From Nitratidesulfovibrio vulgaris str. Hildenborough (GTDB lineage: Bacteria; Desulfobacterota; Desulfovibrionia; Desulfovibrionales; Desulfovibrionaceae), in assembly GCF_000195755.1 (NCBI RefSeq), contig NC_002937.3:2340001-2372000 (forward strand): 32,000 nucleotides of DNA. Reading direction: 5' to 3'. Within the stretch, counting starts at the first letter, position 1. Each line of letters begins with the position of its first letter. A program made the position numbers and the translations under genes. Below are positions 18,634 through 29,777 of this stretch, one piece after another. The notes beneath the pieces are model-generated. The model did no database searches, had not been told where the DNA came from, and saw nothing but the letters and a program-made list of their open reading frames with translations.

Positions 18634-19064
18634 AAACCCTTCCTGAAGTTGTAACGTGGTGTTTCCCCTGACGTGTTGCGGATGCAAATATGCCCGGTGC
18701 AGCGGGTGCTGACATCGGGCATGGATACGGCCTCATTCAATAGAGGCTATATCTGCAATACAGGTAATAATAACAGTATGTTTTTGTTATGTAAACAGTA
18801 TATACCACCTATCTACAGTGTGTGAGGACATTCGACGCATCACCGAAAAACAACGATGCGGCCTTCGGAATGAGTGGCCAGAGCGCACACATCAGCACCA
18901 TATTGCCGCTCATGCCTTCGCGCCTGCCTATATAGCACGATGTCCCAAAACCATGTCGAAGGGCATGGCCAGAGACAATGAAGCTTCACGGAAGATTCTA
19001 TAATGCCGCAGATAGAGACCATCTCCGGCCGCGAAGCCTGAATTCGCCTTCCACAACGAACGAA

Positions 19065-19129: not shown

Positions 19130-19423
19130 TCATGCCTGTTCAGCGAAGAGCAGCACTTCGTTGTTGTCGTTGAACGACAGTGTGAACACCGTGCCGTACT
19201 TCACGAGAAAGTCCTTTTCGGCAATGAACGGCACGTCCTCGACGTCGACGCGGACATCCTCATCCATATCCTGTTCTTCCATTCCGAGGCCGAGGATGAC
19301 CTTCGAACTGCATCCCGACCCGTGCTTGTATTCGCGCAGGCGCACGCAGGTTCCGTCATCCTCTTCGGCAAGCATCGCACGTAGTTTGTCCAGCATGGCT
19401 GCGGGTACGGTAAGGGTGAACAT
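19130..19423 (-). CDS. Small HesB/IscA-like protein, Cys form (97 aa)
   Basis: ATG 19421-19423 has AAGGAG upstream. The product is MFTLTVPAAMLDKLRAMLAEEDDGTCVRLREYKHGSGCSSKVILGLGMEE... The R-L-R-x-x-x-x-G-x-G-C-S pattern resembles the first-Cys region of A-type carriers, but the C-terminal CGC is absent. Cys38 is encoded at 19310-19312. Confidence 0.75.
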   Translation of the reverse strand: MFTLTVPAAMLDKLRAMLAEEDDGTCVRLREYKHGSGCSSKVILGLGMEEQDMDEDVRVDVEDVPFIAEKDFLVKYGTVFTLSFNDNNEVLLFAEQA

Positions 19424-19647
19424 ATCCTATCTCCTTCTTGTGTTTCCCATGCCAGTCGTCCGGCATGGTGTTGTCTGACGGTTCGTCCGTTCGGATCGTC
19501 CGCGGTGAGGGGCACCCCTGCCTCACCCGTGAGCGTCGTTCGCAAGACGAATCCATGAGCAGCACGGTGCTGCCTTTCGGGTGACTTCTCCGGTGGTCTG
19601 TCGGCGCAATCGGGGGAACACGGCAAAAGTCCCTCCTCGCACCACCC

Positions 19648-19684
19648 GGAAAACGCAAAAGCCCCCTGTCGAGGCGACAGGGGG
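19648..19684 (-). terminator. Rho-independent terminator ending the GRE-activase-selenoprotein unit
   Basis: The minus strand reads CCCCCTGTCG-CCT-CGACAGGGGG followed by CTTTTGCGTTTTCC. It lies 40 nt after the TAG at 19725. Confidence 0.75.
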
Positions 19685-19724
19685 CGGCAATGGCGGTGAA
19701 CGCGGCACTCGCCGTGGGGCTTTG

Positions 19725-20018
19725 CTAGCCTTCCACGGGGCTGAGCACAACCTCTCTGTTCTCGCCGAACGTGAGGCTGTAGGCCGTACCGTATTTCACC
19801 AGAAAATCCTTGTTGGCGGAGAACGGTACGCCGTTCACTTCAATCTGCTCGTCCTCATCCTCGTCAAGTTCGTCCATGCCCAGACCGAGCACGATCTTGG
19901 CATGTCAGCCGCCGCCGACCTTGTACTCGCGCAGTCGCACGCAGGTTCCTTCATCTTCGTCCTCGAGCATGGCGCGCAGCCTGTCGAGCATCTCTTCCGT
20001 TACGGTGACAGTGAACAT
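19725..20018 (-). CDS. HesB/IscA-like selenoprotein candidate (97 aa; UGA-Sec at codon 38)
   Basis: ATG 20016-20018 has GGAGAA upstream and lies 20 nt after the activase stop. The frame reads MFTVTVTEEMLDRLRAMLEDEDEGTCVRLREYKVGGG, then TGA (19905-19907), then HAKIVLGLGMDELDEDEDEQIEVNGVPFSANKDFLVKYGTAYSLTFGENREVVLSPVEG, then TAG. The post-TGA part is collinear with the paralogue at 19130-19423, and the TGA aligns with that paralogue's Cys38. Confidence 0.7.
19875..19904 (-). promoter_or_regulatory. Candidate bacterial SECIS stem-loop immediately 3' of the UGA
   Basis: The mRNA reads UGA-CAUGCC-A-AGAUCG-UGCU-CGGUCU-G-GGCAUG. This is 6 bp, a 1x1 A/G mismatch, then 6 bp (one G-U pair), capped by a G-containing tetraloop that starts 14 nt after the UGA. 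Confidence 0.55.
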
Positions 20019-20038
20019 AGCTTCTCCGTTCCTAGTCG

Positions 20039-20932
20039 TTACACCATGACGGGCACGAGCCCGTGTTTCGCAAACCTGTCCAGAACAGCCGAAAGCTGCT
20101 CGGGAGTGTACTGGGGCATGTCGGGCGCGGGCAGGCCCAGCGCCACGTATTTGTTCCATCCGAAGGCATGGCACGGCATGACCTCCACCTTGTCGCGCCC
20201 GAATTCGCCAAGCAGGGCGGCGAGGGCGGAGAGGTTGGCGTCATCGTCGTTCATGCCGGGAATGAGCGGCATCCTCACATGCACTTCCTTGCCTGACGCC
20301 AGCGCGGCGCGCAGGTTGCGCAGAATCAGCGTATTGTCCTGCCCGGTCAGGCGGCGGTGCGCCTCCGGGTCGGTGTGCTTGCAATCGAAGAGGAAGAGGT
20401 CGGCAAGGGCGAGGGTACGGTCGAAGCGCTCTTCGGGACAGAAACCGCAGGTGTCGACCGTGACATGGATGCCCTCTTCATGCGCCGCCTTGACGAGGTC
20501 GAGAAAGAACTCGCCGCCGGAGGTGGGCTCACCACCGCCGAAGGTCACGCCACCGCCGGAATTCTCGTAGAAGAGCATGTCCTTGAGAACGACATCCATG
20601 ACCTCTTCGACGGTCATGAGGCGACCCGACATCTCACGCGCCTTGCTTGGGCACGAGGCCGTACACAGGCCGCAGTGGGTGCATTTCGCGATGGAACGGA
20701 TGACCTTGCCATCGACGATGCGCGCCGCCCCTTCGGGACAGACCTCCACGCACTTGCCGCAGCCGGTGCAGAGGTTCTCGAAGAACAGCATCTGGGGAAC
20801 GGCACTCTGCGACTCGGGATTGCTGCACCACAGACACCGCAGCGGGCAGCCCTTGAGGAAGACGGTGGTGCGCAGGCCGGGGCCGTCATGCACCGACATA
20901 CGCTGGATATTGTAGATCATTCCCTGTCGCAT
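20039..20932 (-). CDS. Glycyl radical enzyme activating enzyme (radical SAM with two extra ferredoxin-type clusters)
   Basis: 297 aa with GGAG upstream. The radical SAM motif is CPLRCLWCSNPE. Auxiliary cluster motifs are CTGCGKCVEVCP and CTHCGLCTASCP. The SAM-binding GGGVTFGGGEP is present. Confidence 0.93.
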   Translation of the reverse strand: MRQGMIYNIQRMSVHDGPGLRTTVFLKGCPLRCLWCSNPESQSAVPQMLFFENLCTGCGKCVEVCPEGAARIVDGKVIRSIAKCTHCGLCTASCPSKAREMSGRLMTVEEVMDVVLKDMLFYENSGGGVTFGGGEPTSGGEFFLDLVKAAHEEGIHVTVDTCGFCPEERFDRTLALADLFLFDCKHTDPEAHRRLTGQDNTLILRNLRAALASGKEVHVRMPLIPGMNDDDANLSALAALLGEFGRDKVEVMPCHAFGWNKYVALGLPAPDMPQYTPEQLSAVLDRFAKHGLVPVMV

Positions 20933-20990
20933 CGAAGGCTCCGCAATGTTGCCGCTGTGCCGTGCAATACAGGCGCAGGTCGGGCGGTGG

Positions 20991-21029
20991 ATGAAAAGAA
21001 GAAGGCGGGAGCCGGGTTCGGCCCCCGCC
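20991..21029 (-). terminator. Intercistronic hairpin plus T-tract between the GRE and activase genes (probable partial terminator)
   Basis: The minus strand reads GGCGGGGGCCG-AACC-CGGCTCCCGCC, an 11-bp stem with one G-U pair, followed by TTCTTCTTTTCAT. Confidence 0.55.
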
Positions 21030-21043
21030 AGTCGATCATGCCA

Positions 21044-23497
21044 TTAGTTCTTGTATTCTGTGCGCTTGATGATCTCGTTCTGCACACCCTTGTCGAGGCG
21101 GGTGAAGTAGGCGCTGAAGCCTGCCACGCGCACGACGAGGTCGGCGTATTCCTGCGGCTTGCACTGCGCGTCCTTCAGGGTATCGGAGCTCACGCAGTTG
21201 AACTGGATGTGCGAACCGCCGAAGTCGCAGTAGGTCTTGATCAGCGACACGAGGGTACGGGCACCGGCAGGCCCTTCGATCACCGAGGGGTTGAACTTCA
21301 CGTTGAAGTGGTTGGCCCCGTAGCGCACGGTGTCGATGGCTTCGGCACCGGACTTGATGAGGGCGGTGATGCCTTCATGGTCGGTACCGGGCATGGCGGA
21401 GACGCTACCGTCGGTGAGTGCCACGCCAGCCTTGCGGCCGTTGGGCAGTGCGCCCATGAGCGAACCGAAGTAGTTGTGGTACGACAGCGAGTAGGCGTCC
21501 AGCGGGGTGCGGTAGCCGAAGCAGTCCGGGCCCTGCGCACTGTGGATGGCGTCCACGTCGCGGTAGAAGCGCTGCACGAAGTGCTCCACTTCGGGGTAGT
21601 CGTTACCGTGCTTGGGCGCCTCGAAGCACATCTTGCGGATGTCTTCGTAGCCTTCGAAGTTGGCCTTCAGGGCTTCAAGCAGCTTCTCCATGGTCACCTG
21701 CTTCGTTTCGAAGACAAGGTACCTGATGGCCAGCAGCGAGTTGGCGGCGTCGATGCCTGCGGTCATGATGGGGTTGACCTGCGGGTAGCGCGTACCACCG
21801 GCCTCTTCGCACATGCCCTTGTCGATGCAGCCGTCGTACATGGCCGAACGGAAGACGCTGGGCACAACCTGAAGCCGGGCCATCTGGCTGAGGTCGGAGT
21901 GCTTGCGCGAGATGTTGAAGAGATGGTCGAGTTGCTTCTTGGTGGCTTCGTACACTTCCTCGAAGGTGGTGAAGGTGGTCGGGTCGCCGGACTCGACGCC
22001 CACCTGCTTCTTGGTCACAGGGCACTTGCCGTTGTTGAGCATGAGCTCGACGACCTTGGCGAGGCAGGGCTGGTCTTCCTGCGTGATGAAGCTGCCCTTG
22101 CCGCAGATGCCGGTGGACACGCACCCGTAGTTGCCGCAGTTGCGGGCGTCTTCGAGGGTGATGCCGCCTTCGTACTGCGCGAAACGGGCGAGGTTGCGCT
22201 GGATGACCACGTTGTTGTTGAGGATCTGGGGCTGGCCGGAGCCGCCGCGGATGCACTCCACAACCTTCTTCATGTACGAGTCCTTCAGCTTCGGATGGTA
22301 GAGCAGGGTCAGCGTGGGCTGGATGTTCTTCATCTGAATCTGGGTGTCGAGCAGCACCTCTTCGAGTTCGGTGCTTGCGTCGTCACCGTTGGCGTCGACA
22401 CCGCCGATGGTGATGGACTGACCGGTGTGACCGGACAGGGTCATGGCGTAGGAGGCCCCCTGGTACTCGCCCAGTTCGAGGTGCTTGATCCACTGGAACT
22501 TCAGCAGGGTGAGCACCTGTTCGCGGGTGAGGTTCCCCTCTTCGATGTCCTTCTTGTAGAAGGGGTACATGTACTGGCCGTAACGACCGGGCGAGGTGGC
22601 GCAGGCCATCTGCTCGGTCTCGATGGCGAGGTGGATGAACCAGAAGGACTGGATGGCTTCGCGGAAGTTGCGGGCCGGGTATTCAGGCACGCGGCGGCAT
22701 ATCTCGGCGATCTCGAGCAGTTCTGCCTTGGCCTTGGGATCGCTCTCTTCGGCGGCGGTCTTCTCGGCGAGTTCGGCGTAGCGATGCGAATGGGCGATGA
22801 CAGCCTCGAACGTCACCAGCATGGCGCGGTAGAGGTCATGCTTCTCCTTGTTCGCAAGGGTGGTGGGGCAGGCTTCGAAACGTGCGCGCACGTCGTCGGC
22901 GAGCCAGCGCAGGCCCTTGTTGAGCACCAGCGGATAGTCGGCGATGCCCGAGCCGCTGGCGACGCTGACGTTCTCGTAGTACATGCCCGCCTTGGCGAAG
23001 GGCGCGGGGTTGATGCCGTACTTCTCCTTGAACATCTTGTTGTTCAGGTCGATGCAGGTGCGGCCCTTCCACAGCTTGTAGGTCTTCTCGAGAAGCTCTT
23101 GCGTCTCCTGCGGGATCTTCATCTCGCCAAGAGAGGCCATCTTGGCCATCTGCATCTCTTCCTTGATCCACGAGACGTTCCATTCGGGGTAGGCGTACAC
23201 GCCAGCGCGCACACCGGTGAGGGTGCCCACGATGGGGTTGCCGTCGAGGAATATCTTCTTGCGGAGGAGCACCCGCTCAAGCAGCTTGGCGCGGATGTAG
23301 ACGACGGGCTCGCCCTGGAATTCGTCGTAGACGTCGAGAAGGCACTGCAGACGTTCGGGGTCCATCACCTGCGGCGCGGCAAGAAGAAAGTCCTTGAGTT
23401 CCTTGACGCGCGATTCGGCGGTATCCCAGTTGATGCCGTAGCCCTTGTTTGCAGGGGTCTGGCCTTCGGTGTTCGATGCGGAAGAAAGAGCAGCCAT
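21044..23497 (-). CDS. Glycyl radical enzyme, PFL2/glycerol-dehydratase-like architecture, substrate unknown
   Basis: I prefer ATG 23495-23497 because AGGAG lies 7 nt upstream; the track ORF begins at a GTG 12 codons earlier. 817 aa. The C-terminal glycyl radical motif is LVVRVAGFSAYFTRL (Gly codon 21119-21121). The Cys loop is NYGCVSTGICGKG (Cys codon 22121-22123). Confidence 0.93.
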   Translation of the reverse strand: MAALSSASNTEGQTPANKGYGINWDTAESRVKELKDFLLAAPQVMDPERLQCLLDVYDEFQGEPVVYIRAKLLERVLLRKKIFLDGNPIVGTLTGVRAGVYAYPEWNVSWIKEEMQMAKMASLGEMKIPQETQELLEKTYKLWKGRTCIDLNNKMFKEKYGINPAPFAKAGMYYENVSVASGSGIADYPLVLNKGLRWLADDVRARFEACPTTLANKEKHDLYRAMLVTFEAVIAHSHRYAELAEKTAAEESDPKAKAELLEIAEICRRVPEYPARNFREAIQSFWFIHLAIETEQMACATSPGRYGQYMYPFYKKDIEEGNLTREQVLTLLKFQWIKHLELGEYQGASYAMTLSGHTGQSITIGGVDANGDDASTELEEVLLDTQIQMKNIQPTLTLLYHPKLKDSYMKKVVECIRGGSGQPQILNNNVVIQRNLARFAQYEGGITLEDARNCGNYGCVSTGICGKGSFITQEDQPCLAKVVELMLNNGKCPVTKKQVGVESGDPTTFTTFEEVYEATKKQLDHLFNISRKHSDLSQMARLQVVPSVFRSAMYDGCIDKGMCEEAGGTRYPQVNPIMTAGIDAANSLLAIRYLVFETKQVTMEKLLEALKANFEGYEDIRKMCFEAPKHGNDYPEVEHFVQRFYRDVDAIHSAQGPDCFGYRTPLDAYSLSYHNYFGSLMGALPNGRKAGVALTDGSVSAMPGTDHEGITALIKSGAEAIDTVRYGANHFNVKFNPSVIEGPAGARTLVSLIKTYCDFGGSHIQFNCVSSDTLKDAQCKPQEYADLVVRVAGFSAYFTRLDKGVQNEIIKRTEYKN

Positions 23498-23711
23498 TTC
23501 AATCTCCTGTGTTGTGAACGTCGTTGTTGCCACTACGTTTCATTTCGTCGGGTCACGTTGCGCCATGTGCCGCCCCGTGCATGAGGGCTTCGGCATCCGG
23601 CATCATGTCCATGCCTCCCGGCATGGAGTCCGGTCAGCATCGCGGGATGGGTAGCGGCGTCACGCCTTTCATCGTGTGCGTCCGTGCCCGCCCTCTCTGC
23701 TTGCCCTTTTC

Positions 23712-23727
23712 TGCACAAGCCATGCCA
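23712..23727 (-). promoter_or_regulatory. Sigma-54 (-24/-12) promoter of the GRE operon
   Basis: The minus strand reads TGGCAT-GGCTT-GTGCA, with correct GG-N10-GC spacing against the consensus TGGCAC-N5-TTGCW. It lies about 215 nt upstream of the GRE ATG. Confidence 0.65.
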
Positions 23728-23906
23728 CGGCCCTTTCACAGCCGCCCGACGTTGCCAACACTACGGAATGCCCTTCCCTTCTCGCCTTTTTTCACAATCT
23801 CCGCCGACCATTTTTTATCGATTGAGAAAAAAACTTTCTTTTCACAAAGAAATCTTCTAGGTTCCCTTCCCGACCACACCATGAGCCTTCCGTGCGAGGA
23901 CCCCCC

Positions 23907-25445
23907 ATGATGCCCCTAGACAGCAGCACTTTCGCCGACGTAAGCCGCGCAGCCGTTCTCACGCCGGCCATGCAGACCATATGGGAAAGTATGGGGGTGG
24001 GGGTCGCCGTGGTGGACGGAGAGGGCATATGCCGCTTCATGAACACCATCCAGCGGCGTGTGGACGGTTTCAGCCGCATTTCCGTGGTCGGGCGGCACAT
24101 CACGAGTCTCTATGTACCGCACGAACTCGAATGCATCCCCACCATCGAGTGTCTCCGCAAGGGCGAACCCATCCTGAAGAAGGCGTACTGGTACAAGACC
24201 ACCAACAACTACCTTGCCAGCACAGTCACGGACTTCATCCCCCTCTATGACGCGGGACGTAAGGACGGGGTCATAGCCTTCACCATCTGGACGGGAACGA
24301 CAGCCTTCGCCGAAGGGCGCAAACGCCAGCCCCGCCCGCCGCAGCCCAAAGGGGCGGCCTATGACTTCTATACGTTCGACAGCATCGTGGGACAGGACGC
24401 CAACCTGCGCGAGGTCATCGCCGAAGCGCGTACGGCAGCCGCAACCTCTTCGCCGGTGATGATCTGGGGGGAAAGCGGCACGGGCAAGGAGGTGTTCGCG
24501 CAAGCGATCCACTCCGAGAGCGACCGCAGACAGCGACCGTTCATCCCCGTGAACTGCGCCGCCATTCCCGAGAACCTGCTCGAAGGCATCCTCTTCGGCA
24601 CGGTCAAGGGCGCGTACACGGACGCCGCCGACAAGCCCGGGCTCTTCGAAGAGGCCGATGGCGGCACCCTGCTCTTCGACGAGCTGAACTCCATGCCGCT
24701 GGGTTTGCAGGCCAAGCTGCTGCGCGTATTGCAGGAGAAACGCGTGCGCCGCCTCGGTTCGCATACGGAAGTCCCGGTAGACGTGCGCATCATGAGCATC
24801 CTCAACGAAGAACCGTTGCAGGCCGTGGAACATGGCGTCCTGCGGCGCGACCTCTTCTACCGTCTCGCCGTGGTGGGCATCTCCGTGCCGCCCCTGCGCG
24901 AACGCAGGAACGACATCCCGCTTCTCGCCCGCATGTTCATCGACCGTTCAGAATTGGCGACGCGCCCCGGTGGGCCGGGGACAGTCGGCGTCAACGACGA
25001 TGTACTGCACATGTTCATGCACTACGACTGGCCGGGCAACATCCGCGAACTCCTGCATGTCGTGGAGGGCAGCCTCGCGCTTCTGGGTGATGGCCCGGAG
25101 ATATGCCCCGCATGTCTGCCGCGGCACTTCCGGGAGGCATGCCATGCGACGGGGAGCACTCCCGCAACGGTTTCGGACATCGTGACGCAGGCCCCCACCC
25201 TCCCCGCCCCCGCGGCCGCTGCCGGCGAGACCGGCGATGCGGGCCTCTACTACGACTACCGGAACATCCGCAAAAGCCACGTCGTCCCGCTCAAGGGATG
25301 CCTGCAGAAATACGAGACCCAGTGCATCTCCAACGTGTTGCGGGTCACGGGGGGGAATGTGGCGAAGGCCGCCCGCATCATGCAGGTCACTGGGGCGGGA
25401 CTGCGTTACAAGATGAAGGCCCTCGACATCTCGGACGAGGATTGA
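23907..25445 (+). CDS. Sigma-54-dependent enhancer-binding protein (PAS sensor, AAA+, Fis-type HTH; no receiver domain)
   Basis: ATG 23907 has GAGGA 6 nt upstream. The N-terminal PAS-like module is MGVGVAVVDGEGICRFMN... The AAA+ module has Walker A GESGTGKE and a GAFTGA-position loop reading GAYTDA, plus GGTLLFDEL, KLLRVLQEKRVRRLG and WPGNIRELLHVVE. The C-terminal HTH is ISNVLRVTGGNVAKAARIMQVTGAGLRYKM. Confidence 0.92.
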   Translation: MMPLDSSTFADVSRAAVLTPAMQTIWESMGVGVAVVDGEGICRFMNTIQRRVDGFSRISVVGRHITSLYVPHELECIPTIECLRKGEPILKKAYWYKTTNNYLASTVTDFIPLYDAGRKDGVIAFTIWTGTTAFAEGRKRQPRPPQPKGAAYDFYTFDSIVGQDANLREVIAEARTAAATSSPVMIWGESGTGKEVFAQAIHSESDRRQRPFIPVNCAAIPENLLEGILFGTVKGAYTDAADKPGLFEEADGGTLLFDELNSMPLGLQAKLLRVLQEKRVRRLGSHTEVPVDVRIMSILNEEPLQAVEHGVLRRDLFYRLAVVGISVPPLRERRNDIPLLARMFIDRSELATRPGGPGTVGVNDDVLHMFMHYDWPGNIRELLHVVEGSLALLGDGPEICPACLPRHFREACHATGSTPATVSDIVTQAPTLPAPAAAAGETGDAGLYYDYRNIRKSHVVPLKGCLQKYETQCISNVLRVTGGNVAKAARIMQVTGAGLRYKMKALDISDED

Positions 25446-25459
25446 GCCGCGAAACGGCA

Positions 25460-25489
25460 ACGCCCCGCACGTGCAACACGGCGGGGCGT
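25460..25489. terminator. Hairpin between the convergent EBP and TauE-like genes
   Basis: ACGCCCCGC-A-CGTG-caa-CACG-GCGGGGCGT. No strong T-tract follows on either side. Confidence 0.45.
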
Positions 25490-25526
25490 ACGATGCGCAT
25501 CGGCAGGGCTGGTTGATGCTGGAGCG

Positions 25527-26261
25527 TCACGCCACAGCGCGCCACAGGCACACAAGCCCGGCCAGCACGATGACCCCCATGAGCATGCGCCGGAACGTCC
25601 CCACGTTGATGAGGCGTACCACCGGAAAGGCACAGACCGTACCGATGATGGTGGCCGGGATGCCGTACATGGCGTAGTCGATGACGGCCTCGGTGTAGAG
25701 TCCTGCCCCGGCCTGCAACAGGCAGGTCATGGTACCGCGAATGACGAAGAAGACGCCCAGCGTCCCCAGGAACACCCGTGGCGACCAGCCCGCATACAGT
25801 CCATAGGCCCCGACGGGAGGCCCGTCGAAGGAGATGGCCGTCCCAAGCAGTCCGGCACCGAAACCGGCAGCGCCGCCGAAGCCCCACGACTCGCGGCCCG
25901 GGCCTCTGACGCGGAAGGTACGTTGCCAGTAGACGTAGTAGAGAAGCAACACCCCCACGGCCCCCTGCAGTACCGTGCCGGGCAGGACGGTGAGGATGTA
26001 CAGCCCCGCGAGGGCACCGGGAATGGAGCCCGCCAGCATGGGCCACATGGCGGAGACACGGCAGTGCCGGTAGTGCATCAGCGCGATGCAGCCGTCCATG
26101 ACCACGTTCATGATGCAACTCAGGGGCACGAGTTCGTGCATGGGAATGACCGTCGCCGCCACGGGCACAGCCACCATGGCCCCGCCGATGCCACTCACGC
26201 CAGAGACGAAACCACCTACCAGCCAGGCGAAGAATACGAGCAACGACGTGGTATCAGGCAT
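25527..26261 (-). CDS. TauE/SafE (TSUP) family anion exporter-like membrane protein
   Basis: The start MPDTTSLLVFFAWLVGGFVSGVSGIGGAMVAVP lies at 26259-26261. About 8 hydrophobic segments carry the Gly-rich G-x-GG-x-x-x-x-P signature in both halves. The ATG overlaps the upstream gene's end by 8 nt. Confidence 0.85.
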   Translation of the reverse strand: MPDTTSLLVFFAWLVGGFVSGVSGIGGAMVAVPVAATVIPMHELVPLSCIMNVVMDGCIALMHYRHCRVSAMWPMLAGSIPGALAGLYILTVLPGTVLQGAVGVLLLYYVYWQRTFRVRGPGRESWGFGGAAGFGAGLLGTAISFDGPPVGAYGLYAGWSPRVFLGTLGVFFVIRGTMTCLLQAGAGLYTEAVIDYAMYGIPATIIGTVCAFPVVRLINVGTFRRMLMGVIVLAGLVCLWRAVA

Positions 26262-26871
26262 CGGCGCCCCCATTTGCGCCCCCGCCTGAACCCTCGTCTG
26301 GCCCCTTGCCGGGGCACTCGCCCCTATCCGGCGCACCGGGCTGCAAGGGGGCACGCCCAAGCTTCCGCATGAGCAGGTCGTAGCGTTCAAGCACGAGGTT
26401 GCGTCCCGCATGCCGTGCCGAGTCCACGCAGTCAGCATAGGCCGTGAGTGCTTCAGGGGAATAGGTCTGCAACTCGCAACCGAGGTAGCGGCGGAAGCCC
26501 TCCTCCCCGTCCGCCCCGATGATGTCGGGGTGCTGCGCGGCGACCTCTGCCCGCCATGTTGATTCGACGGCGACGATGTCCTCGATGCGCGGGTCTTGGG
26601 CCTTCGTCTGCAGAAGGCCCTCCATGAGTGCGTACTTTTCGGTCATGAGATTGCGGCCCGCCTCTGCGGCCTTGCGCAGGTCGTCACGATAGGCTTCGAG
26701 AAACGGCAACGCCAGAACCCCGTGGGTCATCTCACGCATGATGCGGAACGTTCCCGGCAACTCCTGACAGGGTGAAACGCCCCCCCGGTTACGGACGGCG
26801 AGGAACATGGCGAGTTCGGCCTGCACAATGTCCTCTACAAGGGCCTCACGGCGATCAGTCGTCATGGTCAT
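26254..26871 (-). CDS. Soluble helical hypothetical protein (reminiscent of DUF4125, unverified)
   Basis: 205 aa with AGGAG upstream. It has two similar helical halves, each with an RNL(M/V)xE(K/R)Y(A/D)L(M/L) motif (AGRNLMTEKYALMEG and AGRNLVLERYDLLMR). The tail is Gly-rich and low-complexity. Confidence 0.7.
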   Translation of the reverse strand: MTMTTDRREALVEDIVQAELAMFLAVRNRGGVSPCQELPGTFRIMREMTHGVLALPFLEAYRDDLRKAAEAGRNLMTEKYALMEGLLQTKAQDPRIEDIVAVESTWRAEVAAQHPDIIGADGEEGFRRYLGCELQTYSPEALTAYADCVDSARHAGRNLVLERYDLLMRKLGRAPLQPGAPDRGECPGKGPDEGSGGGANGGADA

Positions 26872-26928
26872 GGTCTCCTTGGATATATACGAAAAGAGGT
26901 TGCCATACGCCGCACGGCAGCTTTCACG

Positions 26929-27780
26929 CTACTCGGCGGCAAGGGTCATGCCTGCCGAGGCTGCGACGACGGAGGCTATACCGCCCCACTGCCCCGCGGA
27001 CAATTGCTCGTCCAGCCAGAAGCAGCCCATGAGGGCCGCCACAGCCGGGGCAAGACTCATGAGCGTACCGTAGACTTTCGGCGTGATGCGCCGTAGTGCC
27101 TGCATCTCGAGAAGGCAGGGTACGGCTGCGGAAGAGAGGGCCAGCAGCAGCCCGAAGAGCAGTGAAGACGATTCGAGCAGTGCGCCCCCCACGGTGACGA
27201 GCGACAGGGGCAGGGTCGCCACCCCCCCTGTGAACATGGCAAGCGCCAGTGCCGCGCAGCAGTCTCGGGCACAGGCCGCCTTGCCGAACCAGATGTACAT
27301 GGCCCAGCACCCCGCCGCCGCCCCGGCAAGGGCGACGCCGCGCATGTCCACCAGCCCGACGGCGTCGGGGCGCAACAGCAGCCAGATGCCCGCTGCGGCA
27401 AGGCCCACCCATGCGAAGTCCCGCGGACGGCGCGACGCGGCAAGGGCGATGACCAGAGGCCCCAACATCTGCACGCCCACGGATATGCCAAGCGGAACAT
27501 ACCGGATGGCAGCATAGGAAAAGAGGAACATGCCCCCCAGCCCGACGCCGAACAGCAGGTGGGGCCTCCACTCATCGCGCGGAATGGGCTTCTGCCAGGG
27601 ACGCGAAACCAGCGCGAGTACGGCGGCAGAGAAAAAGAGCCTGTACGTGGTGACGCCCTCGGCACCTACGACAGGAAAGAGATGCTTCGCCCAGCTGGCG
27701 CTGCAATAGATGAGCACCTCGGCACAGAGGACGAGCAACACGGCGAGATACGACGACGAAGAAGGGGCTGACTGCTGCAT
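26929..27780 (-). CDS. DMT superfamily (EamA-like) transporter
   Basis: 283 aa with GAGGA upstream. About 10 hydrophobic segments form two EamA-like halves. Confidence 0.85.
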   Translation of the reverse strand: MQQSAPSSSSYLAVLLVLCAEVLIYCSASWAKHLFPVVGAEGVTTYRLFFSAAVLALVSRPWQKPIPRDEWRPHLLFGVGLGGMFLFSYAAIRYVPLGISVGVQMLGPLVIALAASRRPRDFAWVGLAAAGIWLLLRPDAVGLVDMRGVALAGAAAGCWAMYIWFGKAACARDCCAALALAMFTGGVATLPLSLVTVGGALLESSSLLFGLLLALSSAAVPCLLEMQALRRITPKVYGTLMSLAPAVAALMGCFWLDEQLSAGQWGGIASVVAASAGMTLAAE

Positions 27781-27818
27781 GACGCATCCTCGGGAAAAGG
27801 TTCACGAGTGTGCGCATG

Positions 27819-27834
27819 TGCAAAGCTGATGCCG
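27819..27834 (-). promoter_or_regulatory. Sigma-54 (-24/-12) promoter of the DMT / hypothetical / TauE operon
   Basis: The minus strand reads CGGCAT-CAGCT-TTGCA with correct spacing. It lies 38 nt upstream of the DMT ATG. Confidence 0.55.
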
Positions 27835-28118
27835 CTTGCCATGACGAAGCCGGAATGGCCCCGTAACGCCTTGCCGCAGGGCATGTCGGAACCCCAGCGG
27901 CCCATCAAGAGAAAGATGATCTCTTTATTCACCTGAAACAACACACCAATTTGACAAAGGCCCCAGCAAGGCACGGCATGTGTGCGGACAGCCGCCGCAC
28001 ACAAAGAAAACTTCACTTGATGCCCATTTTCTACCTGAATAGTAAGTTTTCTTTCTCACGCTAATAGAAACTATTAATAACAATGACATTCATTAATCAT
28101 TGTGCCCCAATGGAGACA

Positions 28119-28134
28119 TGTGAAGGACTTCACA
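28119..28134. repeat. Palindrome TGTGAAG-GA-CTTCACA abutting the permease -24 element
   Basis: 7-bp perfect arms with a 2-nt spacer, ending 4 nt before TGGTAC. It shares the TTCACA core with three sites in the GRE control region. Confidence 0.5.
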
Positions 28135-28138
28135 TCGC

Positions 28139-28154
28139 TGGTACGCTTGTTGCT
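28139..28154 (+). promoter_or_regulatory. Sigma-54 (-24/-12) promoter of the APC permease gene
   Basis: TGGTAC-GCTTG-TTGCT lies about 115 nt upstream of ATG 28269. It is preceded by an AT-rich tract of about 200 bp. Confidence 0.6.
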
Positions 28155-28268
28155 GTTCCGGGCTCATCACGCGGTTCCTTGTCTCCGGTTGATGTTCCCG
28201 CGTGGGGCTGCGGCTAACGACCGTCGAGCCGGGAACATCCTCTTCAGCAACCCTTTGTGAGGTTCATC

Positions 28269-29777
28269 ATGTCCGAACAGTTTGAACTTGAAAAAACCCT
28301 GTCCCCGATGCAGGTGTGGGCCCTCGCTCTGGGCTCCATCGTCGGCTGGGGCTGCTTCGTGCTGCCCGGCGACATGTTCCTGCCGCAGGCTGGCCCCGTA
28401 GGGACGCTCACAGGCTTCCTCATCGGTGCCTTCCTTCTCAGCTTCGTGGCTGTCTGTTACAGCTACATGGTCAAGTACGTACCTGTTGCAGGTGGCGCAT
28501 TCGCCTATGCCTATGTCGGCTTCGGCCCGACAGCGGCCTTCATCTGCGGCTGGGCGCTCGTTCTGGGCTACATCGCCATCGTCTGCATCGACATCGCGGC
28601 CCTTGCGCTCATCTTCAGGTTCCTCTTCCCGGGGGTCTTCGAGTTCGGCCCGTTGTACTCCATCGCCGGGTGGCAGGTGTACACGGGTGAAGTGATGCTG
28701 ATGACCTTCGGCACCCTCGCCTTCGGCTGGATGAACTATCGCGGCGTGAGCTTCGCGGGCAAGTTGCAGGTCGTTCTCGCCTACATGCTGACCATCGGCA
28801 TCGTGGCGCTCTTTGCGGGCACCGCCTCCCTTGAATCGGCCCACATGAGCAACCTCATGCCCATGTTCGCCGAACATCGCACGCCGCTTTCCTGCGTGCT
28901 GATCATCTTCGCCATCTCGCCCTTCCTCTTCGTGGGCTTCGACACCGTGCCGCAGGCCGCTGAGGAGTTCGCCTTCGACCCCGCGCGCTCCCGCAGGATC
29001 ATGATCCTCGCCATCTTCATGGGCGTCATCCTGTACAGCCTCGTGGCCCTTTCCGTGGCCATCGTGATGCCCTACCCCGAAATGCTCGCCAAGATGGAAG
29101 CCCTGCGCGCCAGCGGCGGCACAGCATGGGCCACCGGCGACGCCGCCACCATGGCCTTCGGCAAGTTCGGCGCCATCGTGCTGGCCTGCGCCGTTCTCGG
29201 CGCCGTCTGCACCGGCATCAACGGCTTCTACATCGCCACCTCGCGCCTGCTGCTCAGCATGGCTCGCGGCCGCATCCTGCCTTCTTGGTTCGGCGACATC
29301 CACCCCAAGTACCGCACTCCCTACAAGGCCATCCTCTTCACCATCGCCATCGTACTGCTGACTCCCTTCGCCGGTCGTTCCGTGGTGGTATGGATCGTGG
29401 ACATGAGCTCGGTGGGAACCGGCATCGGCTACCTCTTCACCTGCCTTGCCGCCCGCCGCGTGCTTCTGGGTACTCCCGGCGTCGGCAACAAGAGCCTCAG
29501 CATCCTCTGCTGCAACATCGGCACGCTCACTTCCGTCATGTGCATCGTCCTGCTGCTGGTGCCCGGTTCGCCCGCCTACATCAGTGAAGCATCCCGCTGG
29601 TGCATGGTCGCGTGGGTAGTGATGGGCTTCTTCTTCTACTACTCCAACAAGTCCGTATGGGCCCAGTTGCCTGAGATGACGATCCGCTCGAGCATCCTCG
29701 GCAGCTGCGACATCCCTGTCTTCTTCAAGGGCAACACCTCTGGGGTGAAGGCCGCGGCCGAAGCCGCCTCGAAGTAA
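28269..29777 (+). CDS. APC-superfamily amino acid/organocation permease
   Basis: ATG 28269 has GAGG 7 nt upstream. 502 aa with about 12 TM segments. The N-terminus LSPMQVWALALGSIVGWGCFVLPG and the GGAFAYAY motif are typical of the APC family. Confidence 0.9.
   Translation: MSEQFELEKTLSPMQVWALALGSIVGWGCFVLPGDMFLPQAGPVGTLTGFLIGAFLLSFVAVCYSYMVKYVPVAGGAFAYAYVGFGPTAAFICGWALVLGYIAIVCIDIAALALIFRFLFPGVFEFGPLYSIAGWQVYTGEVMLMTFGTLAFGWMNYRGVSFAGKLQVVLAYMLTIGIVALFAGTASLESAHMSNLMPMFAEHRTPLSCVLIIFAISPFLFVGFDTVPQAAEEFAFDPARSRRIMILAIFMGVILYSLVALSVAIVMPYPEMLAKMEALRASGGTAWATGDAATMAFGKFGAIVLACAVLGAVCTGINGFYIATSRLLLSMARGRILPSWFGDIHPKYRTPYKAILFTIAIVLLTPFAGRSVVVWIVDMSSVGTGIGYLFTCLAARRVLLGTPGVGNKSLSILCCNIGTLTSVMCIVLLLVPGSPAYISEASRWCMVAWVVMGFFFYYSNKSVWAQLPEMTIRSSILGSCDIPVFFKGNTSGVKAAAEAASK

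What the first reader, a model, noticed from the sequence alone, without database searches (positions are those of the whole stretch)
19130..29777. System-level view: a sigma-54-controlled GRE / activase / Sec-protein module with three transporters, a candidate uncharacterised anaerobic catabolic locus
Within about 10.6 kb sit the following units:
1. A GRE, its activase, a HesB-like selenoprotein and a Cys paralogue.
2. A divergent PAS-type sigma-54 activator.
3. An operon of a DMT transporter, a soluble helical hypothetical protein and a TauE/SafE-type exporter, with the last two genes overlapping by 8 nt.
4. A divergent APC amino-acid-type permease.

Each transcription unit has a readable -24/-12 element, and the activator has a small-molecule-type sensor (PAS) rather than a receiver domain. 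That is the layout of a substrate-inducible pathway.

The APC importer suggests an amino or zwitterionic substrate. TauE/SafE proteins are named for proposed sulfite/sulfoacetate export during organosulfonate degradation. One testable idea is therefore radical C-S (or other C-X) cleavage of an amino-sulfonate-like compound. The non-canonical Cys loop means the chemistry need not resemble isethionate sulfite-lyase.

No aldehyde dehydrogenase, microcompartment shell or aminotransferase genes are visible in the window. Downstream metabolism must be encoded elsewhere, or the product is excreted.
Basis: inference. Interest (0 to 1): 0.8.

Follow-up and report, generated by a model that had tools for sequence, protein, structure and literature searches.

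The report
Radical enzyme with a selenoprotein partner
This is a real, conserved, jointly regulated gene module of sulfate-reducing bacteria (including common human gut species) built around an uncharacterised glycyl radical enzyme that always comes with a small selenocysteine-containing partner protein, so it probably does chemistry not yet described for this enzyme family.

Summary
Positions 19130-29777 encode a glycyl radical enzyme (GRE), its activase, a small selenoprotein with a Cys paralogue, a divergent sigma-54 activator, an EamA-DUF4125-TauE operon and a divergent APC permease.

- **Regulation:** three -24/-12 promoters (GRE operon, transporter operon, APC) are conserved in about 27 orthologous loci. 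The activator gene and the Cys paralogue have none.
- **What the GRE is not:** it is not pyruvate formate-lyase and not an isethionate-type eliminase. Its Cys loop is GCVS, so the CXE glutamate is missing. The positions of the IslA sulfonate triad hold Ala, Gly and Ser/Leu.
- **Main new result:** the GRE belongs to a clade (54-100% identity) that includes D. piger, Mailhella and Bilophila. The clade has an invariant extra active-site Cys299, at the position of HypD Asp278. It is always encoded next to an IscA-fold protein of family NF033940, whose only invariant functional residue is Sec or Cys38. That partner is found in 45 of 48 clade loci and 0 of 32 outgroup loci. A SECIS hairpin is kept only in the TGA copies.
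- **Prior work:** the regulon layout was predicted in 2015 for D. vulgaris DVU2275/DVU2272, annotated as "PFL". No substrate is known.
- **Best reading:** an inducible uptake and radical-conversion module that uses a thiol/selenol relay.
the amino-sulfonate C-S cleavage proposal is not supported, but it is not excluded.

The parts
19130..19423 (-). Cys-type paralogue of the small partner protein (97 aa, Cys38). It is a separate transcription unit.
   Evidence: NF033940 at 137 bits. The AF2 model has an IscA/SufA fold, TM 0.64-0.72. The gene lies downstream of a terminator. It has no conserved -24/-12 element.
19661..19685 (-). Intrinsic terminator that ends the GRE-activase-selenoprotein operon.
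   Evidence: An 11-bp stem with 9 G-C pairs, followed by TTTTGCGTTT, about 40 nt after the stop codon of the Sec gene.
19724..20018 (-). Sec-type small partner protein (97 aa). The UGA codon is at 19907-19905, which is residue 38.
   Evidence: The translation is interrupted only at codon 38, opposite Cys38 of the paralogue. NF033940 scores 136.6 bits with U replaced by C. The TGA is kept in 39 distinct homologous genes.
19876..19892 (-). SECIS-like hairpin GUGCUC-GGUCU-GGGCAU, 12 nt downstream of the UGA.
   Evidence: At least 5 of 6 stem pairs are kept in 36 of 39 TGA genes, against 8 of 28 Cys genes. The loop is GGUCU in 26 of 39. G-C to A-U exchanges keep one pair intact in 4 of 20 sequences.
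20039..20932 (-). GRE-activating radical SAM enzyme (297 aa).
   Evidence: TIGR02494 at 380.8 bits, above the cut-off of 174. Radical_SAM and Fer4 domains are present. The CPLRCLWC motif is visible in the sequence.
21044..23497 (-). Glycyl radical enzyme (817 aa from the ATG at 23497, which has an AGGAGA ribosome-binding site; an alternative GTG lies at 23533). Cys loop GCVSTGIC, Gly motif RVAGFSAYF, extra active-site Cys299.
   Evidence: No NCBIfam equivalog cut-off is reached, and the score is below the PFL2-3 subfamily cut-off (519 against 678).
23712..23727 (-). -24/-12 promoter of the GRE operon, TGGCATGGCTTGTGCA.
   Evidence: An equivalent element with 10-11 of 11 matches lies 54-100 nt upstream of the GRE in 27 of 28 orthologous loci.
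23825..23857 (+). AT-rich candidate activator-binding region: AGAAAAAAACTTTCT plus the shared 15-mer CACAAAGAAATCTTC.
   Evidence: The 15-mer occurs only twice in the window, once in each divergent intergenic region, where 0.03 occurrences are expected. Similar AT-rich GAAA..TTTC repeats lie 100-150 bp upstream of -24 in orthologues. An AT-rich palindrome was predicted for the DVU2275 site (PMC4641369).
23892..25445 (+). One-component sigma-54 enhancer-binding protein. It has a weak PAS-like N-terminus, an AAA+ domain with a GAYTDA loop, and HTH_8.
   Evidence: GAYTDA is shared with DVU2275 and with 15 orthologous loci.
25527..26261 (-). TauE/SafE (TSUP) family membrane protein, 244 aa.
   Evidence: PF01925 at 101 bits. 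The start codon overlaps the DUF4125 stop by 8 nt. Orthologues at 57-76% identity occur in most ortholog-group loci.
26254..26871 (-). DUF4125 protein. It is all-helical, with an invariant Cys35-Gln36 and two GRNLxxE[KR]Y repeats.
   Evidence: PF13526 at 162 bits. Alignment. The AF2 model has pLDDT 90 and finds no PDB fold match. The gene lies next to 20 of 48 clade GREs and 1 of 32 outgroup GREs.
26929..27780 (-). EamA/RhtA-like DMT transporter, the first gene of the operon in this genome only.
   Evidence: NF007823 at 214 bits, below its cut-off, and PF00892. No orthologue was found in other loci. D. piger has an unrelated EamA gene beside its APC.
27819..27834 (-). -24/-12 promoter of the EamA-DUF4125-TauE operon, CGGCATCAGCTTTGCA.
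   Evidence: Equivalent sites lie upstream of DUF4125 in 10 of the 11 other ortholog loci where DUF4125 was found.
28000..28014 (+). Second copy of the shared 15-mer, CACAAAGAAAACTTC. It lies between the two divergent promoters.
28139..28154 (+). -24/-12 promoter of the APC permease gene, TGGTACGCTTGTTGCT.
   Evidence: TGGCAY-N5-TTGCT with 10-11 of 11 matches lies upstream of the APC gene in all 17 other ortholog loci that hold it.
28257..29777 (+). APC-superfamily amino-acid-type permease (506 aa), the presumed substrate importer.
   Evidence: PF13520 and PF00324. The closest solved relatives are CAT and GkApcT amino-acid transporters. Orthologues at 67-79% identity occur in 17 ortholog loci.

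Best explanation
The region is one substrate-inducible regulon.

- **Induction:** a one-component sigma-54 activator (weak PAS-like sensor, GAYTDA loop) binds AT-rich sites in the two divergent intergenic regions. It switches on three -24/-12 promoters. These drive (i) the GRE, activase and selenoprotein genes, (ii) the EamA, DUF4125 and TauE genes, and (iii) the APC permease gene.
- **Transport:** the APC permease imports a small amino-acid-like compound. TauE and EamA move a product or co-solute.
- **Catalysis:** the activated GRE converts the substrate. The GRE belongs to a distinct clade that has lost the acid/base residues of the 1,2-eliminases. HypD His160, Asp278, Asp339 and Glu436 are replaced here by Gly184, Cys299, Gly359 and Ser461. 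The clade has gained a second active-site cysteine, Cys299.
- **Partner protein:** the clade is always encoded with an IscA-fold protein whose only invariant functional residue is Sec or Cys38. The most likely mechanism is that this protein docks on the GRE and supplies a selenol or thiol. Together with Cys299 it would act as a redox or group-transfer relay, for example re-reducing a Cys299 disulfide or selenosulfide. That would resemble thioredoxin-dependent class III ribonucleotide reductase and GrdA in glycine reductase. The overall reaction would then be a reductive or transfer-type cleavage, not an elimination.
- **Cys paralogue:** the separately transcribed Cys copy is a selenium-independent backup.

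Shown here: gene content, co-conservation, the promoters, the Sec recoding signal, the clade signature, and the correlation between Cys299 and the partner protein.

Inferred: the direction of transport, physical docking, the redox-relay role, and the identity of the substrate, which remains unknown.
For: - **Co-conservation:** GRE, activase, small protein, EBP, TauE and APC occur together in loci with >=80% GRE identity.
- **Conserved promoters:** -24/-12 elements sit at the three units across about 27 loci. A 15-mer is shared only by the two intergenic regions.
- **Regulator:** the GAYTDA loop and an AT-rich upstream site match the DVU2275 regulon predicted in D. vulgaris.
- **Cys loop:** it reads GCV[S/G/T/A] in the clade, against GCVE/GCVD/GCLD in outgroups.
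- **Active-site signature:** it is invariant across 54-100% identity.
- **Cys299:** it aligns with HypD Asp278, which lies 3.1-3.5 A from the substrate and is essential.
- **Partner association:** a profile search finds the partner in 26 of 27 and 19 of 21 clade loci. The three misses are truncated contigs. It finds the partner in 0 of 32 loci with <40% GRE identity.
- **Cys299 versus partner:** 46 loci have both, 34 have neither, 4 have Cys299 only and 1 has the partner only.
- **Sec or Cys38:** it is the only invariant Cys/Sec of the partner.
- **SECIS:** the hairpin is kept in TGA genes and decays in Cys genes.
- **Operon structure:** a terminator separates the Sec operon from the Cys copy.
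- **Fold:** the partner has an IscA fold, and its top structural match is YneR, a HesB-like protein modelled bound to pyruvate dehydrogenase E1 alpha.
- **Literature:** a June 2026 GRE review lists no such class or partner. A May 2026 selenoproteome review lists HesB-like proteins as being of unknown function.
Against: - No substrate, product or protein-protein contact is shown.
- No disulfide reductase or thioredoxin gene is conserved in the loci. The CCG/HdrD-like gene next to the Bilophila locus is not conserved elsewhere.
- Cys465 on the Cys loop and Cys26 of the partner are conserved only in the ortholog group. Any relay must therefore work with Cys299 and residue 38 alone.
- Fe-S proteins can also use Sec or Cys ligands, so residue 38 could be a metal ligand.
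- DUF4125 and C_GCAxxG_C_C proteins are frequent but not obligatory neighbours, and their roles are unexplained.
- The loci were retrieved through peptide patterns taken from this GRE, so the sampling of the clade is not unbiased.
Confidence: 0.5

Rival explanations
1. The GRE is a C-S lyase acting on an amino-sulfonate such as taurine, cysteate or homotaurine. The APC permease imports the substrate, and TauE handles sulfite or a sulfonated product.
For: - A TauE/SafE-family gene is co-conserved and co-regulated with the GRE in the ortholog group.
- The hosts are sulfate- or sulfite-reducers that gain from sulfite, and related GREs (IslA, IseG, HpsG) do this chemistry.
- A selenol or thiol partner could in principle accept a sulfur species.
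Against: - The CXE glutamate used by all known C-S lyases is absent.
- The positions of the Arg/Gln/Arg sulfonate triad hold Ala180, Gly184 and Ser670/Leu671.
- The HpsG and HpfG models score 459 and 392 bits against cut-offs of 1000.
- Sister lineages with the same invariant active-site signature lack TauE and use BCCT, SSF or TRAP transporters.
- A sulfite reducer has no evident need to export sulfite. D. piger does not use taurine as an electron acceptor (PMC6453916).
Confidence: 0.12
2. The GRE is an ordinary pyruvate or 2-ketoacid formate-lyase, as its D. vulgaris counterpart DVU2272 is annotated. The neighbouring genes are incidental.
For: - DVU2272, whose activator DVU2275 carries the same GAYTDA loop, is treated as PFL in the literature up to 2024.
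- The Cys-loop residue after Cys-Val is Ser, as in the PFL motif CCVS.
- A second active-site Cys exists, although on a different strand.
Against: - The PFL model TIGR01255 scores 68.5 bits against a cut-off of 994. E. coli PFL structures score 66 bits, against 420 for CutC and HypD.
- The Cys loop has one Cys, not the CC pair that only PFL and TdcE carry.
- The tight link to an amino-acid permease, a dedicated activator and a selenoprotein is not expected for central pyruvate metabolism.
Confidence: 0.03
3. The small protein is what its database name says, an A-type Fe-S cluster carrier. It matures or repairs the three [4Fe-4S] clusters of the activase, or of another partner, and plays no part in GRE catalysis. 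The GRE would then carry out a non-redox reaction of unknown type.
For: - NF033940 is named 'ErpA-related iron-sulfur cluster insertion protein'.
- The model has an IscA/SufA fold.
- The gene usually follows the activase gene.
Against: - Only one of the three cluster-ligating cysteines of A-type carriers is present, and the C-terminal CGC motif is missing.
- Activases of all other GRE clades manage without such a gene: 0 of 32 outgroup loci have one.
- The presence of the small protein tracks a change in the GRE active site (Cys299), not a feature of the activase.
- Keeping paired Sec and Cys isoforms is typical of catalytic redox residues.
Confidence: 0.15
4. The small protein is a structural or regulatory subunit of the GRE. 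It would be comparable to the beta and gamma subunits of benzylsuccinate synthase, the gamma subunit of HPAD, or the HesB-like PDH-binding protein YneR. [quoted passage not shown] Residue 38 would serve as a redox sensor and not as a co-catalyst.
For: - Small accessory subunits are known for some GREs.
- The top structural match is YneR in complex with PDH E1 alpha.
- The partner and the GRE are strictly co-encoded.
Against: - Known GRE small subunits are unrelated Fe-S or rubredoxin-like proteins.
- A purely structural role does not explain strict Sec/Cys conservation at a single residue or the upkeep of costly Sec decoding.
Confidence: 0.15

Closest known systems
DVU2275 regulon of Desulfovibrio vulgaris Hildenborough (Kazakov et al. 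2015, PMC4641369)
   Same: It has a one-component sigma-54 activator with the rare GAYTDA loop. The activator is divergent from a sigma-54-dependent 'PFL'-plus-activase operon, and an AT-rich palindromic upstream site was predicted.
   Different: That work was a regulatory prediction that treated the enzyme as pyruvate formate-lyase. It did not note the selenoprotein, the active-site signature, or the APC and TauE units.
GRE 1,2-eliminases and isomerases (CutC, HypD, GD, PD, IslA/IseG, HpsG, HplG, YbiW)
   Same: These are the best sequence and structure relatives, at 330-420 bits. They share the barrel, the Gly and Cys loops, and the ferredoxin-domain type of activase.
   Different: All of them keep the CXE motif. 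Here Glu is Ser, and it is Gly, Thr or Ala in sister lineages. HypD His160, Asp278 and Asp339 are Gly, Cys and Gly here. No microcompartment or aldehyde-processing genes are present.
Pyruvate formate-lyase / TdcE
   Same: It is a GRE with two catalytic cysteines and Ser after Cys-Val on the Cys loop.
   Different: The two PFL cysteines are adjacent on the Cys loop. Here the second Cys lies on a different strand, at position 299. Overall similarity is very low, at 66-68 bits.
Thioredoxin-dependent class III ribonucleotide reductase
   Same: It is the only known kind of GRE whose cycle consumes reducing equivalents delivered by a small thiol protein to active-site cysteines. This is the functional analogy proposed here.
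   Different: It belongs to a different branch of the superfamily. Its partner has a thioredoxin fold and is not an IscA fold with Sec. The analogy is an inference only.
Glycine reductase selenoprotein A (GrdA)
   Same: It is a small selenoprotein that acts as a mobile catalytic arm in the reductive cleavage of an amino acid in anaerobes.
   Different: Its fold and CxxU motif are unrelated, and its partner enzymes are pyruvoyl-dependent, not radical. No homology to the proteins here.
A-type Fe-S carriers (IscA/SufA/ErpA) and the HesB-like selenoprotein family TIGR01911
   Same: They share the fold, at TM 0.64-0.72. Sec or Cys sits at the position of the first conserved Cys of the HesB domain.
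   Different: The C-terminal CGC ligands are missing here. TIGR01911 scores only 18.8 bits against a cut-off of 66, whereas NF033940 scores 127-137.

Membership tests
Glycyl radical enzyme superfamily (PFL-like) | C-terminal glycyl radical motif RVxG[FWY], and a Cys-loop cysteine | tested here: met
   RVAGFSAYF and GCVSTG are present. PF01228 scores 101.7 bits and PF02901 scores 518 bits.
Glycyl radical enzyme superfamily (PFL-like) | Adjacent radical SAM activase with CX3CX2C | tested here: met
   TIGR02494 scores 380.8 bits against a cut-off of 174. CPLRCLWC and two ferredoxin motifs are present.
GRE 1,2-eliminases / isomerases | [quoted passage not shown] | tested here: not met
   The motif is C-V-S here and C-V-[S/G/T/A] in all 47 aligned clade members. 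Outgroups have E or D. The review states that all eliminases and isomerases keep CXE.
Isethionate / DHPS sulfite-lyases (IslA, IseG, HpsG) | Arg-x3-Gln on beta-1 plus a second Arg that anchors the sulfonate | tested here: not met
   Mapping by position through the HypD alignment (HypD Arg156 and His160, and the Thr645 region) gives Ala180, Gly184 and Ser670/Leu671. This mapping is indirect. No IslA sequence was available for a direct alignment.
Isethionate / DHPS sulfite-lyases (IslA, IseG, HpsG) | Score above the curated family cut-off | tested here: not met
   NF048011 (HpsG) scores 459 against a cut-off of 1000. The PDB IslA and IseG entries score 334 and 339 bits, below CutC and HypD.
Pyruvate formate-lyase | Cys-Cys pair on the Cys loop, and a score above the family cut-off | tested here: not met
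   The loop is GCVS with a single Cys. TIGR01255 scores 68.5 against a cut-off of 994.
A-type Fe-S cluster carrier (IscA/ErpA) | IscA fold | tested here: met
   The AF2 model has pLDDT 87. Foldseek gives TM 0.72 for 1s98 (IscA) and 0.69 for 2d2a (SufA).
A-type Fe-S cluster carrier (IscA/ErpA) | Three conserved cluster-ligating cysteines (Cys-x(n)-Cys-Gly-Cys) | tested here: not met
   Only Cys or Sec38 is invariant. There is no C-terminal CGC. Cys26 is limited to the ortholog group.
NF033940 'ErpA-related' family | Score above the curated cut-off | tested here: met
   Scores are 137.4 and 136.6 bits for the two window proteins and 126.7 for the Bilophila-type protein, against a cut-off of 65.
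HesB-like selenoprotein family TIGR01911 | Score above the curated cut-off (66.35) | tested here: not met
   There is no hit for the window protein and 18.8 bits for the Bilophila-type protein.
Bacterial selenoprotein | In-frame UGA aligned with Cys in homologues, plus a SECIS hairpin shortly downstream | tested here: met
   The hairpin lies 12 nt after the UGA with a GGUCU loop. It is kept in 36 of 39 TGA genes against 8 of 28 Cys genes.
Bacterial selenoprotein | selA/selB/selC/selD present in the genome | not testable with these tools
   Only 32 kb of the genome is available. The only tRNA in the window is tRNA-Ala.
Sigma-54-dependent regulon | Activator with an AAA+ sigma-54 interaction domain and a GAFTGA-type loop | tested here: met
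   PF00158 scores 203 bits, and the loop reads GAYTDA.
Sigma-54-dependent regulon | GG-N10-GC promoters at the target operons, conserved in orthologues | tested here: met
   Three sites are present in the window. They are conserved with 10-11 of 11 matches across orthologous loci.
Sigma-54-dependent regulon | Activator binding sites upstream of the promoters | tested here: inconclusive
   The two intergenic regions share a 15-mer where 0.03 occurrences are expected. AT-rich GAAA..TTTC repeats appear in orthologues. No binding data exist, and no formal motif model was built.
TauE/SafE (TSUP) transporters | Pfam PF01925 above the gathering score | tested here: met
   The score is 101.1 bits against a cut-off of 32.6. 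The substrate and direction of transport cannot be tested here.

The most novel reading that the evidence does not exclude
This clade would be a new class of glycyl radical enzyme. It would be the first outside the ribonucleotide reductases whose catalytic cycle depends on a dedicated protein selenol or thiol. An IscA-fold selenoprotein would insert Sec38 next to Cys299 and Cys459 to carry out a reductive or group-transfer cleavage of amino-acid-like or betaine-like compounds. In effect this would be a radical counterpart of the Stickland-type selenoprotein reductases. It would operate in sulfate reducers, including the dominant human gut species D. piger and Bilophila.
Probability: 0.3. Interest if true: 0.9.

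Novelty: new variant of a known kind. Interest (0 to 1): 0.72.

Why it matters
GREs drive several health-relevant gut reactions, including formation of TMA, H2S, p-cresol and skatole. Whole clades of the family still lack a function.

- **Where the clade occurs:** D. piger, D. desulfuricans, Mailhella and Bilophila, and many marine Desulfovibrionaceae.
- **Annotation problem:** the likely D. vulgaris counterpart, DVU2272, is still modelled as pyruvate formate-lyase, so metabolic models of sulfate reducers may contain an error. Orthology of DVU2272 to this GRE was not tested here.
- **Why the chemistry may be new:** the eliminase acid/base set is lost, a second active-site cysteine is gained, and a Sec/Cys partner is obligatory. 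Together these point to chemistry outside the seven GRE classes currently recognised.
- **A context for an orphan selenoprotein:** this small IscA-fold selenoprotein family, like the HesB-like selenoproteins known since the mid-2000s, has no assigned function; here it gains a concrete enzymatic context.
- **Database consequence:** many entries for the partner are 37-aa and roughly 50-aa fragments split at the UGA. Standard annotation therefore largely misses the association.

Tried and rejected
- **Plain PFL:** rejected on scores and on the Cys loop.
- **IslA-like C-S lyase:** the CXE motif and the sulfonate triad are absent.
- **Conserved disulfide reductase:** the CCG/HdrD-like gene beside the Bilophila locus occurs only there. 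C_GCAxxG_C_C is in 7 loci and a TPR gene is in 9 loci of the Bilophila type, so neither is universal.
- **DUF4125 fold search:** a confident model (pLDDT 90) found no PDB match (best E 0.66, TM below 0.25), so it gave no functional clue.
- **Reciprocal test from the small protein in metagenomes:**
  - The second scan was swamped by its acidic pattern and returned only 8 loci.
  - All 7 loci with usable flanks had the GRE and activase upstream, but all are close relatives.
- **Word-indexed search with the small protein:** it gave only 7 hits.
- **Riboswitch or RNA element in the long GRE leader:** no Rfam hit, and the fold z-score was -1.75.
- **Crude ORF clustering of sister loci:** too noisy in high-GC DNA, so it was replaced by annotated look-ups.
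- **Literature searches:** queries for GRE with HesB, selenoprotein or selenocysteine, and for DUF4125, D. piger PFL and DVU2272, found no functional study. Subscription-only papers are not covered.
- **Second GRE beside the Desulfobaculum locus:** it is an ordinary CutC-like enzyme with GCVEPQKSG and is not a paralogue of this clade.

Full report
**1. What is in the sequence**

The window has about 63% G+C. The rest of it carries housekeeping genes:
- Tex, a peroxiredoxin and an acyl-CoA synthetase.
- ThyX, RuvABC, YebC and FtsJ.
- A glycosyltransferase, tRNA-Ala and an autotransporter.
- A hybrid sensor kinase.

| Feature | Coordinates (strand) | Key evidence |
|---|---|---|
| GRE | 23497..21044 (-) | ATG preceded by AGGAGA; homologues are 814-817 aa |
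| Activase | 20932..20039 (-) | |
| Small gene with in-frame TGA | 20018..19724 (-) | TGA at 19907-19905 |
| Terminator | 19685..19661 (-) | strong stem and T-tract |
| Cys paralogue | 19423..19130 (-) | |
| Sigma-54 activator | 23892..25445 (+) | |
| EamA | 27780..26929 (-) | |
| DUF4125 | 26871..26254 (-) | |
| TauE | 26261..25527 (-) | overlaps DUF4125 by 8 nt, ATGCCTGA |
| APC permease | 28257..29777 (+) | |

**2. Regulation**

A search for TGGCAC-N5-TTGCW with up to 2 mismatches finds 23 sites in the window, where 19 are expected. The count alone therefore means nothing. Three of the sites, however, lie in the correct orientation upstream of the GRE, of EamA and of APC.

In loci whose GRE is at least 80% identical, the picture is consistent:
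- A GG-N10-GC element with 10-11 of 11 consensus positions lies 54-100 nt upstream of the GRE in 27 of 28 loci.
- The same holds upstream of the DUF4125 gene in 10 of the 11 other loci where that gene was found.
- The same holds upstream of the APC gene in all 17 other loci that hold it.
- The activator gene and the small genes have no conserved element.

Further points on regulation:
- The two divergent intergenic regions of the window share the 15-mer CACAAAGAAAWCTTC, which occurs nowhere else (0.03 expected).
- In orthologues, AT-rich GAAA...TTTC repeats lie about 100-150 bp upstream of the -24 element.
- The activator carries the unusual loop GAYTDA, as do the activators of 15 orthologous loci.
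- Kazakov et al. (PMC4641369) predicted that the D. vulgaris activator DVU2275 has GAYTDA and binds an AT-rich palindrome. They predicted that it controls the sigma-54-dependent "PFL" operon DVU2272-2269. The regulatory architecture has therefore already been predicted for what is very probably the same system.
- The PAS nature of the sensor rests only on sub-threshold hits.

**3. The enzyme is neither PFL nor a known eliminase**

- No NCBIfam equivalog cut-off is reached, and not even the PFL2-3 subfamily cut-off (519 against 678).
- The PFL model scores 68 against a cut-off of 994.
- The best solved relatives are CutC and HypD at about 420 bits. IslA and IseG score about 335 bits, and E. coli PFL scores 66 bits.
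- The Cys loop reads GCVSTGIC. Across 80 related loci, every GRE with at least 54% identity has C-V-[S/G/T/A]. More distant GREs have the canonical C-[VL]-[ED].
- A June 2026 review states that all GRE eliminases and isomerases keep the CXE motif. It also states that the C-S lyases add an Arg/Gln/Arg sulfonate triad (PMC13450708).

I mapped the active site through the HMMER alignment to HypD. The HypD structure paper, whose D278N primer sequence confirms the register, served as the check (PMC7077986). The four essential acid/base residues of HypD are replaced as follows:

| HypD residue | This GRE |
|---|---|
| His160 | Gly184 |
| Asp278 | Cys299 |
| Asp339 | Gly359 |
| Glu436 | Ser461 |

The IslA triad positions correspond to Ala180, Gly184 and Ser670/Leu671. 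This last mapping is indirect.

**4. A clade signature and an obligatory partner**

Fifty-seven positions are conserved within the clade and different outside it. Among them, Cys299 is present in 100% of clade members and in none of the sequences with less than 40% identity.

A set of probable active-site residues is invariant from 54% to 100% identity:
- G184, C299, Y306 and G307.
- H339, H357, T358 and G359.
- E564, E565 and D667.
- N675, Y676 and H730.

Substrate-proximal positions 180, 461 and 465 vary between lineages.

A profile search of six-frame translations, with TGA read through, looked for the small protein next to the GRE:

| GRE identity to this one | Loci with the small protein |
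|---|---|
| at least 80% | 26 of 27 |
| 54-79% | 19 of 21 |
| less than 40% | 0 of 32 |

The three misses within the clade are contigs that end at or inside the GRE. Comparing Cys299 with the presence of the partner gives 46 loci with both, 34 with neither, 4 with Cys299 only and 1 with the partner only. One to three tandem copies of the partner gene occur per locus. Usually the first copy is a TGA form and the following copies are Cys forms.

**5. The partner is a genuine selenoprotein with an IscA fold**

- The TGA aligns with Cys in the paralogues. Residue 38 is the only invariant Cys or Sec, since Cys26 is restricted to the ortholog group.
- Twelve nucleotides after the UGA lies the hairpin GUGCUC-GGUCU-GGGCAU. 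As I recall, E. coli fdhF has the same apical loop sequence.
- At least 5 of 6 stem pairs are kept in 36 of 39 distinct TGA genes, but in only 8 of 28 Cys genes. The loop is GGUCU in 26 of 39. A few double substitutions keep a pair intact.
- The protein belongs to NF033940 (127-137 bits) and not to TIGR01911.
- Its AF2 model (pLDDT 87) matches IscA and SufA at TM 0.64-0.72. The best match is YneR, a HesB-like protein modelled on pyruvate dehydrogenase E1 alpha. That match is a precedent for this fold acting as an enzyme-binding subunit.
- The protein lacks the C-terminal CGC ligands of Fe-S carriers.
- In 1.84 billion representative proteins the family has only about 110 clusters. Many of these are 37-aa N-terminal or roughly 50-aa C-terminal fragments, which is what gene callers produce when they stop at the UGA.

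**6. What varies**

TauE and APC accompany only the ortholog group with at least 80% identity. Sister lineages show other arrangements:

| Locus | Accompanying genes |
|---|---|
| L006 | BCCT transporter |
| L004 | SSF transporter |
| L005 | TRAP transporter |
| Bilophila type | no transporter; a TPR-DUF4125 pair |

DUF4125 is enriched but dispensable. It is found in 10 of 27 and 10 of 21 clade loci, against 1 of 32 outgroup loci. It has no solved structural relative.

The clade therefore probably performs one type of chemistry on a family of small polar, mostly zwitterionic substrates. TauE is a lineage-specific addition and not a clue to the core reaction.

**7. Interpretation**

I regard the following as established:
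- The region is a single sigma-54- and activator-controlled, substrate-inducible module.
- It is built around an uncharacterised GRE clade.
- The clade's hallmark is an extra active-site cysteine together with a dedicated Sec/Cys IscA-fold protein.

My preferred mechanism is a thiol/selenol relay. Sec38 of the docked partner would work with Cys299, either to deliver reducing equivalents or to accept a group. This would be analogous to thioredoxin-dependent class III ribonucleotide reductase and to GrdA. The mechanism is an inference.

Three rival readings of the partner or the enzyme remain open:
- The partner is an Fe-S carrier for the activase.
- The partner is a regulatory subunit.
- The enzyme is an amino-sulfonate lyase.

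A plain PFL is effectively excluded.

No paper in the searchable library links a GRE to a selenoprotein partner. Recent reviews of GREs and of prokaryotic selenoproteins list neither the class nor a function.

**8. Limits**

- No coordinates of predicted structures were available, so the proximity of Cys299 to Cys459 rests on homology to HypD.
- Nothing here identifies the substrate.

Noticed in passing
window 23498-23711 (-): The leader between the -12 element and the GRE start codon is about 214 nt here, against roughly 54-100 nt in orthologous loci. The extra G+C-rich stretch contains repeated GGCATG/CATGCC motifs. It has no Rfam match and is not unusually stable (z -1.75).
   Followed up: partly
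window 26937-26952 (-), inside the 3' end of the EamA gene: A second -24/-12-like element, AGGCATGACCCTTGCC, lies 66 nt upstream of DUF4125. The EamA gene is absent from all orthologous loci, so it looks like an insertion between the conserved promoter and DUF4125. The internal element may be a remnant or a second promoter.
   Followed up: partly
window 19130-19423 and 19661-19685 (-): The Cys paralogue of the selenoprotein lies behind a strong terminator and has no recognisable sigma-54 or sigma-70 promoter. Its expression, perhaps in response to selenium, is unexplained.
   Followed up: partly
window 26254-26871 (-), DUF4125: The protein has an internal duplication, seen as two GRNLxxE[KR]Y motifs, and a nearly invariant Cys35 followed by an invariant Gln36. 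Its confident all-helical model has no relative in the PDB. In Bilophila-type loci the gene is paired with a TPR protein.
   Followed up: partly
L002/L003 1715-4144 (-), Desulfobaculum bizertense: A CutC-like GRE (GCVEPQKSG) lies directly beside the orthologous module. It comes with its own PAS sigma-54 activator, a C_GCAxxG_C_C protein and a further Cys-type small IscA-fold gene. This makes two sigma-54-controlled GRE systems side by side.
   Followed up: partly
L001, L006, L015, L016, L092 (between the activase and the small gene): In marine members, a C_GCAxxG_C_C 'putative redox-active' protein is inserted into the GRE operon. This is another cysteine-rich accessory protein of unknown role.
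   Followed up: no
window 18700-18830 and 16696-18687 (-): An autotransporter-like gene (TIGR01414 beta-barrel) is preceded by a strikingly AT-rich stretch. The local G+C content is 54%, against 63% for the window.
   Followed up: no
window 29933-31963 (-): A hybrid sensor histidine kinase (dCache, HisKA, HATPase and receiver domains) is convergent with the APC gene. It is not conserved next to the module in the other loci examined.
   Followed up: no
protein database hits P0260-P0349: Many database entries of the NF033940 family are 35-40-aa or 45-56-aa fragments that end or begin at residue 38. This indicates systematic mis-annotation of the Sec forms.
   Followed up: partly
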